From an uncultured Nitrososphaeria archaeon (lineage in GTDB: Archaea > Thermoproteota > Nitrososphaeria > Geothermarchaeales > JDFR-13): a DNA stretch of 28,028 bases. A model generated the notes under the pieces. The model saw only the letters and a list, made by a program, of their open reading frames with translations, was not told where the DNA came from and did not search any database. Made by a program: the position numbers and the translations under genes. Below are positions 22,740 to 23,508 of the stretch, in pieces (the first letter of the stretch is position 1; the number at the start of each line of letters is the position of its first letter). The stretch spans positions 1 through 28,028 of the forward strand of contig CAZHBK010000001.1 in the NCBI GenBank assembly GCA_964530465.1, read 5' to 3'.

Positions 22740-23508
22740 CTAGTTCCTTAACCTTACATAAATTAAAATAGCTAGTTGCCTTAAGTATCTCCAATTCAGT
22801 TTTCTCGGATTGAACCTAACTCCATTATATTTAGCTACTTTCATTGCAATTCTGATAAGTACTTGTCTTGCTCGATGATTAAAGTTCATTCTTCCATTAT
22901 ATACCGCTCTTAATCCTAAGTAAATTAAGAAGCTTCTAGTACTCTTAAAACTATCAATCCTTGGAATTAGTGTTAAGAAATATAGTAAGTTACCACCACC
23001 TAATCCCTCGACATCACTAAACCTATCAAGAATATTCTTATACTTCCTCTTTAAAGTATACACTAGCTTTACTTGTTCTCTAATAAGTTCCTTTTCATAT
23101 AATTTTAGAGATTTTATTGGTAGACTTCTCTTCTTATTAAATGTAATCATTTGTCTGACTTTCTTTATTTCTCTCAAAATCAGAATATACTTATCTATAT
23201 CTGGATCTTTTGATAATTGGCGGGCAGTGTACTCCCTGAAGTATTCTGGATGATCCCGGTGTATTAAGTATAATAATTTTGCATCATTCTCATGTGTTTT
23301 CTCAAGTCCATATTTCTCTCTATATATTGTGATTTTTGACCTTTAAGTGGCATACTCTGATCCCGCTATTAATTAGAGAATGCAAAATTTCATGAGGAGC
23401 CTCCTCTAAGTATACTTCCTCCACCCTCTTATCTTTTAAAAACTTCACGAGATTAGAGTTAGAGACTTCATAGATCCGTACATCCTTATATTTTTGAAGA
23501 AGTCTAAT
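22740..23508 (-). pseudogene. IS110-family transposase/recombinase, frameshifted; no clear start codon
   Basis: The C-terminal ORF has a Transposase_20-like FSDVEGLG...LTLIPRIDSFKSTRSFLIYLGL. In-frame upstream is YREKYGLEKTHENDAKLL (KTDxxDA-like). A second frame (23508-23320) encodes IYEVSNSNLVKFLKDKRVEEVYLEE...GIRV. A +1 shift at 23342-23323 (A5 run at 23333-23337) joins them. Confidence 0.8.

What the first reader, a model, noticed from the sequence alone, without database searches (positions are those of the whole stretch)
22740..23508. Unusually small IS110 recombinase (~255 aa reconstructed) with atypical catalytic motifs
Joining the two frames gives about 58 + 197 codons, smaller than the roughly 320-450 aa typical of IS110/IS1111 recombinases. 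The KTDxxDA motif reads KTHENDA. The loop after YLGL, which normally carries the catalytic Ser (GLxPxxxxSG), is short and reads RAVYNG; AAT (Asn) is one base from AGT (Ser). The first Asp of the DEDD set and a start codon cannot be identified. This copy is probably dead. Whether these deviations reflect decay or a minimal family with different chemistry cannot be told from one copy.
Basis: partly seen in the sequence, partly recalled or inferred. Interest (0 to 1): 0.65.

Follow-up and report, generated by a model that had tools for sequence, protein, structure and literature searches.

The report
Dead copy of RNA-guided archaeal jumping gene
The small "IS110 recombinase" is a broken copy of an undescribed archaeal mobile element whose 270-residue protein resembles the RNA-guided nuclease TasR more than IS110 enzymes, and whose single attached RNA hairpin spells out the exact DNA site where each copy is inserted.

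Summary
Window 22740-23508 (minus strand) carries a two-frame gene remnant with KTHENDA and YLGLRAVYNG and no start codon. The break is not at the A5 run. It is a TGG-to-TAG change at 23320-23322 plus a 2-nt deletion, and contigs from three other studies carry it identically.

This is not decay of a canonical IS110 gene. An intact 270-aa paralogue lies in the same genome. About 28 metagenomic relatives of 267-307 aa all have His in KxHxxD, giving a D-E-H-D RuvC site, and none has a conserved Ser loop. Pfam IS110 domains score below threshold. The best sequence and fold match is TIGR-TasR (9MTY), followed by IS621 and ISCro4.

Each gene carries one covarying hairpin across its stop codon. The hairpin has two hypervariable 10-nt segments framed by GGUU and UG. 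The reverse complement of one segment lies in the 3' flank in 10 of 15 loci. Two empty/filled allele pairs show 1.8-2.0-kb insertions that split a site matching both segments (20/20 and 17/20), with 10- and 7-bp direct repeats.

Best reading: an RNA-guided, serine-less mobile element of hydrothermal Geothermarchaeota-type archaea. The window copy is dead. The joining chemistry is inferred. This scan has reported the same kind of element on other archaeal DNA.

The parts
23323..23508 (-). N-terminal gene fragment (frame A, 62 codons). It carries RuvC strands including the Glu of VYLEE (23401-23415). It lacks the first ~18 codons, including the first catalytic Asp and the start codon.
   Evidence: TAG at 23509-23511 closes the frame.
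23320..23322 (-). In-frame TAG where the family has an invariant-type Trp codon (TGG in the intact paralogue).
   Evidence: Alignment to G000:C51. Protein alignment.
23315..23319 (-). Approximate site of a 2-nt deletion that shifts the reading frame. The position is only as precise as the alignment.
   Evidence: Identical in independent contigs.
22740..23342 (-). C-terminal gene fragment (frame B, 200 codons plus stop). It carries the RuvC His/Asp helix, the coiled coil and the Nop/Tnp-like helical domain.
   Evidence: (69% identical to the intact 270-aa paralogue).
23280..23300 (-). KTHENDA. This is the third and fourth residues (His, Asp) of a D-E-H-D RuvC site. The His is invariant in the core family.
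22893..22922 (-). YLGLRAVYNG. This is the short variable loop at the place where IS110 enzymes carry the catalytic Ser hairpin. No residue is conserved here.
   Evidence: (13-residue loop, no strands).
22634..22736 (-). Single guide-RNA hairpin beginning just after the stop codon (22740-22742); in other copies it overlaps the stop. The outer 17-bp stem is 22637-22653 with 22718-22734. The inner hairpin is 22671-22697. Two internal-loop strands lie between them.
   Evidence: Fold z = -7.3. Covariance model R1 scores 82 bits. Covariation.
22703..22712 (-). Spacer A (RNA sense AAUAUAUUUA), between GGUU and CG.
22659..22668 (-). Spacer B (RNA sense UAUCACUUGG), after GGUU.
22566..22633 (-). Pyrimidine-rich tract, a T-run (terminator-like, around 22609-22620) and a 3' tail shared with the C51 copy. 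Homology between the copies ends near 22566-22570.
22551..22560 (.). Flanking half-site, exactly complementary (10/10) to spacer A. It lies 5-9 nt beyond the end of inter-copy homology and 7 nt upstream of the ATG (22544) of the SagB-like gene.
23523..23532 (.). Flanking half-site-like sequence identical in sense to spacer B at 8/10. It lies just upstream of the truncated gene. Part of it (ATCACTTAA) is also present in the uninterrupted intergenic region of sister genera.

Best explanation
Window 22551-23532 holds a dead copy of a mobile element of about 1.3-2 kb. It is 5'-truncated and has a nonsense codon and a 2-nt frameshift.

The element's only conserved protein has about 270 residues. 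It consists of a RuvC domain with a D-E-H-D site, a coiled coil and a Nop-type helical domain. Its nearest relative is the TIGR-associated nuclease TasR. It belongs to the same superfamily as IS110 bridge recombinases but lacks their catalytic serine.

One structured RNA is transcribed with the gene and overlaps or directly abuts its stop codon. Its order is: outer stem, GGUU, 10-nt spacer, UG, inner hairpin, GGUU, 10-nt spacer, UG, outer stem. This is the two-spacer layout of a stem-loop tigRNA or of one loop of a bridge RNA.

Shown:
- The two spacers are complementary to opposite strands of the two halves of the chromosomal site that the element interrupts.
- The element is flanked by 7-10-bp direct repeats made of the inner 3-4 nt of each half-site plus the 0-3-nt gap between them.

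Inferred:
- A protein dimer loaded with the RNA recognises the uninterrupted site.
- Its RuvC sites cut both strands with a stagger centred on the junction of the half-sites.
- The element is joined into that break, or copied into it from a filled allele.

The window copy can no longer make the protein. Its guide hairpin and its right junction are still intact.
For: Family:
- An intact 270-aa paralogue lies on G000:C51 and a partial copy on C82.
- There are 23 relatives of 225-352 aa, with H82 and D85 invariant, E44 nearly invariant, D6 conserved wherever the N-terminus is present, and no conserved Ser after YLGL.
- His is present in all 28 core members. Asp replaces it in more distant ones.

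Nearest known:
- The family profile against PDB sequences gives 9MTY TasR at E 5.4e-11 and no IS110 chain.
- The AF2 model has pLDDT 91.6.
- Foldseek gives TasR 3e-10 and IS621/ISCro4 about 1e-7.
- VIA-align gives TasR Z 17.8 (251 aligned, rmsd 4.2), ISCro4 15.7, IS621 15.2 and T. thermophilus RuvC 8.2 for residues 1-103.

Dimer:
- The homodimer prediction uses the coiled coil (residues 119-154). The score is 0.52 against a best control of 0.00 from 3 controls.
- That mark was reached by 20 of 30 proteins solved as pairs of one chain and by 1 of 23 solved as single chains.
- The runs agree in at least 94% of contacts, and the partner's pLDDT is at least 85.
- The pass may reflect likeness to the solved TasR, Nop5 and IS621 dimers.

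RNA:
- The hairpin is present at every intact gene end.
- In 17 sequences, 91% of cells are paired. There are 93 double-change cells against 29 in shuffles and at most 20 in slid controls.
- The own genome has exactly three hits, one for each gene copy. There are no hits in 13 genomes of the same family and no arrays.

Target:
- The reverse complement of one spacer matches at 9/10 or better in the 200-nt 3' flank of 10 of 15 loci, and at 10/10 in 7. The figures for cross-locus pairs are 9 and 2 of 210.
- Empty allele L085/L088 against filled L082/L081/L087: a 1986-bp insert, a 10-bp repeat, and an empty site that reads spacer B, 3 nt, then the reverse complement of spacer A, at 20/20.
- Empty allele L065 against filled L060: an 1830-bp insert, a 7-bp repeat, and an empty site matching at 17/20 with no gap.
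- In both empty loci the cognate guide gives the best score in the whole locus, exactly at the junction.

Window locus:
- The spacing between the SagB-like and GGR genes is 1050 bp here and about 230 bp in two sister genomes.

From established knowledge, not tested here:
- D-E-H-D is the active-site composition of T. thermophilus RuvC and of the Cas9 RuvC domain.
Against: - No biochemistry exists. Cleavage, the cut positions and the joining step are all inferred.
- The element ends are not conserved, and no terminal inverted repeats or second (donor) loop were found. How the donor is recognised is therefore unknown.
- The gap between half-sites varies from 0 to 4 nt, which is odd for a rigid dimer.
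- Six of 17 loci, including the intact C51 copy and C82, show no flank match within 230 nt.
- The window's 5' junction cannot be reconstructed. The upstream flank holds an almost whole target-like site rather than a clean half-site.
- Published stem-loop TasR proteins are nuclease-dead repressors (preprint 10.64898/2026.09.09.750476). A binding-only role therefore has precedent.
- Only two empty/filled pairs were found.
Confidence: 0.55

Rival explanations
1. Homing or guard role only. The RNA-protein complex recognises and cuts (or blocks) the uninterrupted allele. The element is then copied in by host homologous recombination, or is retained after excision, as described for TnpB/IscB. The primary insertion at a new site is made by something else.
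For: - The guide matches the empty site and not the element ends.
- There is no donor loop and no conserved termini.
- Empty and filled alleles coexist in one sample, ERZ23491052.
- An earlier check in this scan cautioned that such matches show a guide for the empty site, not who lands the element.
Against: - No other conserved protein lies in the element. The small ORFs have no Pfam match and are not homologous to each other.
- Copies sit at many unrelated loci with different guides, which homing alone does not explain.
- The direct repeats centred on the half-site junction look like the footprint of a staggered cut.
Confidence: 0.25
2. A true bridge-type recombinase with an unrecognised nucleophile. 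The protein exchanges strands between a circular donor and the target as IS110 does, using another residue in place of Ser. The 7-10-bp repeat is then a shared crossover core and not a duplication.
For: - The full-length fold matches IS621 and ISCro4 at Z 15-16.
- The guide layout equals one bridge-RNA loop.
- The donor junction rebuilt from element 1 keeps the core and matches the guide at 13/20 (my reading).
Against: - The Ser-bearing hairpin is absent from the model and from the alignment.
- There is only one loop.
- A 7-10-bp core that differs between related elements would require the guide and the donor to change together.
- The sequence profile is closer to the nuclease TasR.
Confidence: 0.12
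3. A resident, non-mobile single-unit TIGR-Tas module. It binds or represses the neighbouring host gene, and the flank match reflects regulation.
For: - The matches lie at promoters or start codons of the adjacent genes. The window match is 7 nt upstream of the SagB-like ATG, and the L039 match overlaps the TrmB start.
- Stem-loop TasR repressors are published.
Against: - Empty alleles lack the whole 1.8-2.0-kb module, and the insertion splits the matching site.
- The genome holds multiple diverged and truncated copies.
- Contigs break at the element in many assemblies.
Confidence: 0.04
4. An eroded canonical IS110/IS1111 serine recombinase.
For: - There is a weak PF02371 match at E 0.02-0.06.
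- The motifs resemble KTDxxDA and YLGL.
Against: - Intact relatives share the small size, the His and the missing Ser.
- Only 122 proteins among 1.84 billion representatives match the family profile. The family is therefore not part of the large IS110 family.
Confidence: 0.02

Closest known systems
TIGR-TasR (TaTasR of a Thermoproteota archaeon, PDB 9MTY; Faure et al. 2025, PMC12045711) and stem-loop TasR systems (preprint 10.64898/2026.09.09.750476)
   Same: - Domain order is RuvC, coiled coil, Nop domain.
- It is the best sequence-profile match and the best fold match.
- There is no serine loop.
- A coiled-coil dimer is predicted.
- The guide has two short spacers that read opposite strands of one contiguous site.
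- Each spacer is followed by UG and preceded by xUU. PateTasR has CUU/UG and this family has GUU/UG.
- In many copies the RNA overlaps the 3' end of the gene, as reported for some stem-loop arrays; in the window it starts just after the stop codon.
   Different: - There is one guide unit per gene, not a tandem array.
- The guide matches the module's own insertion site, and the module is a mobile insertion with direct repeats.
- The third RuvC residue is His.
- Published stem-loop TasRs have dead RuvC sites, whereas this family keeps a complete D-E-H-D set.
- The spacers are 10 nt, with a 0-4-nt gap between half-sites.
IS110/IS1111 bridge recombinases with bridge/seek RNA (IS621 8WT6/8WT9, ISCro4 9T56)
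   Same: - It is a mobile element with one protein and one structured RNA.
- The overall fold matches at Z 15-16.
- The RNA loop pairs with both strands of the target halves that end up on either side of the insertion.
- The RNA lies at the 3' side, as in the IS1111 group.
   Different: - There is no catalytic Ser and the Pfam domains score below threshold.
- The site is DEHD, not DEDD.
- The RNA has a single loop, with no donor-binding loop.
- The flanking direct repeats are 7-10 bp instead of a 2-nt core.
- The element ends are not conserved.
TnpB/IscB with omega RNA in IS200/IS605 elements
   Same: - A transposon-borne RuvC nuclease carries a guide overlapping the 3' end of its gene.
- The guide recognises the element's own target site, which suggests a homing or retention role.
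   Different: - The fold and the RNA are unrelated.
- Those guides are read from the flank beyond the transposon end and pair with one strand.
- A separate TnpA transposase does the moving.
Archaeal Nop5 with box C/D sRNA
   Same: - The protein has a RuvC-like N-domain, a coiled-coil dimer and a Nop domain.
- The RNA has the layout C, guide, D', loop, C', guide, D.
   Different: - Nop5 has a dead N-domain.
- It recruits fibrillarin and L7Ae.
- It targets RNA and is not mobile.

Membership tests
IS110/IS1111 bridge recombinases | PF01548 (DEDD_Tnp_IS110) and PF02371 (Transposase_20) matched at the gathering score | tested here: not met
   PF02371 scores 15.8 and 14.1 bits against a cut-off of 21.3. 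PF01548 is not reported for the window fragments or for the intact paralogue. Only a few distant relatives come close.
IS110/IS1111 bridge recombinases | D-E-D-D tetrad with KTDxxDA | tested here: not met
   The third residue is an invariant His in the core family. D, E and the last D are kept.
IS110/IS1111 bridge recombinases | Catalytic Ser in the GLxPxxxxSG hairpin of the Tnp domain | tested here: not met
   The loop after YLGLR is 9-13 residues, variable, and has no conserved Ser. The model shows a loop without strands.
IS110/IS1111 bridge recombinases | Bridge RNA with separate target-binding and donor-binding loops | tested here: not met
   There is one internal loop per element. The covariance model finds one unit per element and none elsewhere.
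IS110/IS1111 bridge recombinases | Guide segments complementary to both halves of the insertion site | tested here: met
IS110/IS1111 bridge recombinases | Overall RuvC, coiled-coil, C-terminal helical fold | tested here: met
   Z 15.2-15.7 over 261-262 residues, rmsd 4.8-5.0.
TIGR-Tas (TasR) | Nop-domain protein with an N-terminal RuvC domain | tested here: met
   9MTY gives profile E 5.4e-11, Foldseek 3e-10, and Z 17.8 over 251 residues.
TIGR-Tas (TasR) | Tandem array of guide units next to the gene | tested here: not met
   Tandem Repeats Finder finds no array in the window. The model gives exactly one hit per gene copy.
TIGR-Tas (TasR) | A unit with two spacers flanked by box C/box D motifs that targets both DNA strands | tested here: met
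   The unit is GGUU, N10, UG, twice. Both spacers match opposite strands of the empty sites. The published stem-loop boxes are CUU/UG.
TIGR-Tas (TasR) | Coiled-coil homodimer | tested here: inconclusive
   Prediction only: score 0.52 against a best control of 0.00. It may pass by likeness to solved dimers.
RuvC-type nuclease active site | Four catalytic residues at strand 1, strand 4 and the helix after strand 5 | tested here: inconclusive
   D6 ends strand 1, E44 follows strand 4, and H82 and D85 open helix 82-95 in the model. Activity was not tested. D-E-H-D in T. thermophilus RuvC and Cas9 is from my own knowledge.

The most novel reading that the evidence does not exclude
[quoted passage not shown] A serine-less, TasR-type RuvC dimer is programmed by a single two-spacer hairpin. 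It makes a staggered double-strand break at the site the RNA spells and inserts its own element there, leaving 7-10-bp repeats. It would be a living link between TIGR-Tas nucleases, IS110 bridge recombinases and the Nop5 box C/D machinery. It would also be a natural 270-residue, roughly 100-nt-RNA system for programmable insertion from thermophilic archaea.
Probability: 0.45. Interest if true: 0.9.

Novelty: new variant of a known kind. Interest (0 to 1): 0.8.

Why it matters
Faure et al. left the natural role of TIGR-Tas open and listed 'genetic mobility' as one possibility. Here a TasR-type protein is the only conserved gene of a mobile insertion, and its single guide reads its own target.

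This gives a testable natural function. It also bears on whether IS110, TasR and Nop5 descend from RNA-guided mobile elements. Vaysset et al. postulated a missing archaeal lineage of this kind.

It also points to a very small, motif-free, two-strand-reading system that may insert DNA without a serine recombinase step.

The window copy itself is only a fossil. Its value is that it led to the family.

Tried and rejected
- **Rfam:** only sub-threshold microRNA look-alikes for the hairpins.
- **NCBIfam:** no match.
- **Relatives elsewhere:** none in viral contigs or in GTDB species genomes by pattern scan. In 400 genomes of the class, only one other genome had a fragment.
- **Programmed frameshift or assembly error at the A5 run:** rejected.
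- **RNA expression:** no RNA holder listed among the sequencing runs.
- **Empty allele at the window locus:** no joint skipping the element in contigs of four runs.
- **A second guide unit or a donor loop:** none found with model R1.
- **Terminal inverted repeats or conserved termini:** none seen between two exactly bounded elements.
- **Small ORFs inside the elements:** no Pfam match and not homologous to each other.
- **More empty alleles:** not found for the L036, L020 and L024 elements, and one neighbour protein was not on record.
- **Own-genome targets of the three guides:** the only near match is C149:3335-3354 with 2 mismatches, but its two halves are in the wrong order for a target.
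- **The intact C51 copy and C82:** no flank match within 230 nt.
- **TasR cut geometry:** I could not derive the exact register from the paper's text. The comparison of repeat length with its 8-nt stagger is therefore only qualitative.
- **Literature:** searches for a mobile or single-guide TasR element found nothing. Most subscription papers are not in the library.

Full report
**1. The observation**

On the minus strand, frame A runs from 23508 to 23323 (62 codons) and ends at TAG 23320-23322. Frame B runs from 23342 to 22743 (200 codons), with its stop at 22740-22742. KTHENDA lies at 23280-23300 and YLGLRAVYNG at 22893-22922. TAG at 23509-23511 closes frame A upstream, so there is no start codon and no first Asp.

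One detail is wrong. The A5 run at 23333-23337 is read in frame. Alignment to an intact paralogue shows that the damage lies just downstream. A conserved Trp codon has become TAG, and 2 nt are missing at about 23317/23318. The first ~18 codons and the whole upstream region are also gone.

Contigs from three other studies cover these positions without any difference. The lesions are real DNA and not an assembly error.

**2. Decay, or a family trait?**

The same genome is a 1.6-Mb, 280-contig MAG. It holds an intact 270-aa paralogue on contig C51 (69% identical) and a partial copy on C82.

A search of 5.8 billion protein clusters found 23 relatives, mostly of 267-307 aa. All come from metagenomes, and none has a name or a Pfam domain. 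In their alignment H82 and D85 are invariant, E44 is nearly invariant, and D6 is conserved wherever the N-terminus is present. The stretch after YLGLR is short and variable and has no conserved Ser.

A profile search of 1.84 billion representatives found only 122 proteins. All 28 core members have His. More distant members, of about 290-340 aa, have Asp in KSDENDA-like motifs.

The small size, the His and the missing Ser are therefore family traits. The window's Asn sits at a position that is D, N, P, K or V in relatives, so its one-base distance from Ser means nothing.

**3. What the protein is**

Pfam's IS110 domains stay below threshold. PF02371 scores 14-16 bits against a cut-off of 21.3, and PF01548 is not reported.

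The family profile searched against all PDB sequences hits one entry, 9MTY chain A, at E 5.4e-11. The other matches are noise, and no IS621 or ISCro4 chain appears at E up to 10. 9MTY is TasR of the TIGR-Tas system, from a Thermoproteota archaeon (Faure et al. 2025, PMC12045711).

An AlphaFold2 model of the intact paralogue has a mean pLDDT of 91.6.

| Structure | Foldseek E | VIA-align Z |
|---|---|---|
| TasR (9MTY) | 3e-10 | 17.8 (251 residues, rmsd 4.2) |
| ISCro4 | about 1e-7 | 15.7 |
| IS621 | about 1e-7 | 15.2 |
| TasH | 1e-3 | about 12 (C-terminal part only) |
| T. thermophilus RuvC | — | 8.2 (residues 1-103) |

In the model D6 ends strand 1 and E44 follows strand 4. H82 and D85 open the helix after strand 5. 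This is the RuvC arrangement. From my own knowledge, D-E-H-D is the active-site set of T. thermophilus RuvC and of the Cas9 RuvC domain, so the His is a normal nuclease variant and not a defect.

Where IS110 enzymes have the Ser-bearing hairpin, the model has a 13-residue loop of lower confidence.

A homodimer through the coiled coil (residues 119-154) is predicted.
- The score is 0.52 against a best control of 0.00 from 3 controls.
- The mark was reached by 20 of 30 proteins solved as pairs of one chain and by 1 of 23 solved as single chains.
- The runs agree in at least 94% of contacts, and pLDDT is at least 85.
- The pass may come from likeness to solved TasR, Nop5 or IS621 dimers.

**4. 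The attached RNA**

A hairpin of about 100 nt lies at the stop codon, overlapping it in many copies. In the window it occupies 22634-22736, just after the stop at 22740-22742, and its folding z-score is -7.3.

The same structure is present at every intact gene end in 20 metagenomic loci. Its order is:
- an outer stem of about 15-17 bp;
- (G)AGGUU;
- 10 variable nucleotides;
- UG and UC(A/G)CC;
- an inner hairpin;
- AGGUU;
- 10 variable nucleotides;
- UG and UCACC;
- the other strand of the outer stem.

A pyrimidine tract and a run of T follow the hairpin.

In an alignment of 17 sequences, 91% of cells are paired. There are 93 cells with changes on both sides, against 29 in shuffles and at most 20 in slid controls. 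The two 10-nt segments differ even between close relatives.

A covariance model finds exactly three copies in the window's genome, one per gene copy. It finds none in 13 genomes of the same family, and never a second unit within an element. Tandem Repeats Finder shows no array.

The layout is that of a stem-loop tigRNA. Published PateTasR units have CUU/UG boxes. It is also the layout of one loop of a bridge RNA. It occurs here as a single unit.

A more distant Asp-type relative, P0025, has the same single hairpin. P0027 has a hairpin of the same architecture with different boxes.

**5. What the spacers match**

In 10 of 15 loci the reverse complement of one spacer occurs at 9/10 or better in the 200 nt after the hairpin. 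It is exact in 7 loci. With spacers swapped between loci the figures are 9 and 2 of 210. Matches in the sense orientation are not enriched. In the window the exact match to spacer A is at 22551-22560.

Two pairs of alleles settle the meaning.

| | Pair 1 (GGR / FeoA) | Pair 2 (glutamate dehydrogenase / TrmB) |
|---|---|---|
| Empty contigs | L085, L088 | L065 |
| Filled contigs | L082, L081, L087 | L060 |
| Insert | 1986 bp | 1830 bp |
| Direct repeat | 10 bp | 7 bp |
| Empty site | spacer B (10/10), 3 nt, reverse complement of spacer A (10/10) | spacer A (7/10) directly followed by reverse complement of spacer B (10/10) |

In pair 1 the repeat is the last 3 nt of the first half-site, the 3-nt gap and the first 4 nt of the second half-site. 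In pair 2 it is again 3 nt plus 4 nt around the junction. In pair 2 both alleles occur in one sample.

In both empty loci the cognate guide gives the best score of 17 guides, exactly at the junction.

A third element, L036, shows the same pattern without an empty allele. One spacer matches at 9/10 at the left, the other at 10/10 at the right, and a 12-nt repeat spans the junction.

**6. The window locus**

The SagB-like gene and the geranylgeranyl reductase gene are 1050 bp apart here and about 230 bp apart in two sister genomes. The remnant is therefore an insertion.

Its right junction carries the exact complement of spacer A. An 8/10 sense match to spacer B lies at 23523-23532, next to the truncated gene. 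Part of that match is ancestral host sequence. The left junction cannot be rebuilt because the copy is truncated.

The genome also holds at least four further fragments that keep only the 3' tail, on contigs C91, C7, C25 and C48.

**7. Host and habitat**

The closest named genomes by the neighbouring reductase gene are Candidatus Geothermarchaeota / Nitrososphaeria MAGs. The holding runs are hydrothermal-vent and marine-sediment metagenomes. The gene contexts are ordinary chromosomal genes, not viruses.

**8. Mechanism**

Shown:
- The module is a mobile insertion.
- It has one conserved protein and one structured RNA.
- The two spacers read opposite strands of the two halves of the interrupted site.
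- Direct repeats are centred on the junction of the half-sites.

Inferred:
- A dimer loaded with the RNA binds the uninterrupted site.
- Its two RuvC sites cut with a stagger.
- The element is joined or copied into the break.

TasR makes an 8-nt staggered break centred between its two half-sites. This is of the same kind as the 7-10-bp repeats here, but I could not fix the register from the text.

I could not tell whether the repeats are duplications or a shared crossover core. I could not tell how the donor is recognised. I also could not tell whether insertion at new sites needs host functions. The rival readings reflect these gaps.

**9. Comparison and novelty**

The system works like an IS110/IS1111 element in that an RNA loop spells the target. 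It fails the defining tests for that family: Ser, DEDD, two loops, a 2-nt core and the Pfam thresholds.

Its protein and RNA unit are closest to TasR with a stem-loop tigRNA. It fails the 'tandem array' criterion, and it is mobile, which TIGR-Tas systems are not known to be.

I found no paper describing such elements. Vaysset et al. (bioRxiv 10.1101/2024.06.21.599552) discuss a missing archaeal lineage between IS110 and Nop5.

After I had reached this reading, the scan's own notes showed that follow-up agents have reported the same kind of element in at least seven other archaeal genomes. A first-reader note on this same stretch proposes that the loop encodes the insertion site. I cite these as agreement, not as support.

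**10. Verdict**

The window gene is a fossil, but it belongs to an undescribed, serine-less, RNA-guided mobile element family.

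Noticed in passing
L018:250-720, L019:60-540, L022:1100-1370 (5' regions of metagenomic copies); L002:34-131 in the own genome: Many copies carry 250-470 nt of GC-rich structure upstream of the gene. It consists of a series of 8-10-bp hairpins with variable, covarying stems and a conserved loop (CCAGGUG or AUCAGGYGG), followed by one long hairpin closed by GGGUAGCCGCCCC. It does not match the guide model. It is missing from some copies (L020, L025) and from the window copy. 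Its function is unknown. Contigs often break there.
   Followed up: partly
G000:C91:1412-1478, C7:3441-3484, C25:10-66, C48:1955-2008: Four more fragments in the same genome keep only the 3' strand of the outer stem and the pyrimidine/T-run tail of the element. Together with the window copy, most copies here are truncated from the 5' side while their 3' ends are intact. This bias is unexplained.
   Followed up: partly
G000:C149:3335-3354: A 20-nt site matches the reverse complement of window spacer A followed by spacer B with 2 mismatches. This is the opposite order from the verified targets. It may be chance in AT-rich DNA or something not yet understood.
   Followed up: no
L039 versus L040, upstream of position 7560: Two contigs share the element and its right flank (TrmB and the genes beyond it). 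They have unrelated left sides starting inside the element's 5' part. This suggests a rearrangement at the element.
   Followed up: no
window 23595-24998 and L080-L089:3001-4401: Both the window copy and the unrelated L018-type element lie next to a geranylgeranyl-reductase-family gene (PF22578), on different sides of it. This is probably coincidence.
   Followed up: no
Proteins P0009, P0012, P0014 (C-terminal tails); L171 versus L170: The stop codon falls at different places inside the hairpin. Some proteins therefore gain 30-40 extra residues read from the RNA-coding sequence (278 against 307 aa for the same locus).
   Followed up: no
L049:700-1490 (sister genome G046): At the orthologous SagB-like/GGR spacer, this genome has about 780 bp containing a small Cys-rich ORF instead of the element.
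   Followed up: no
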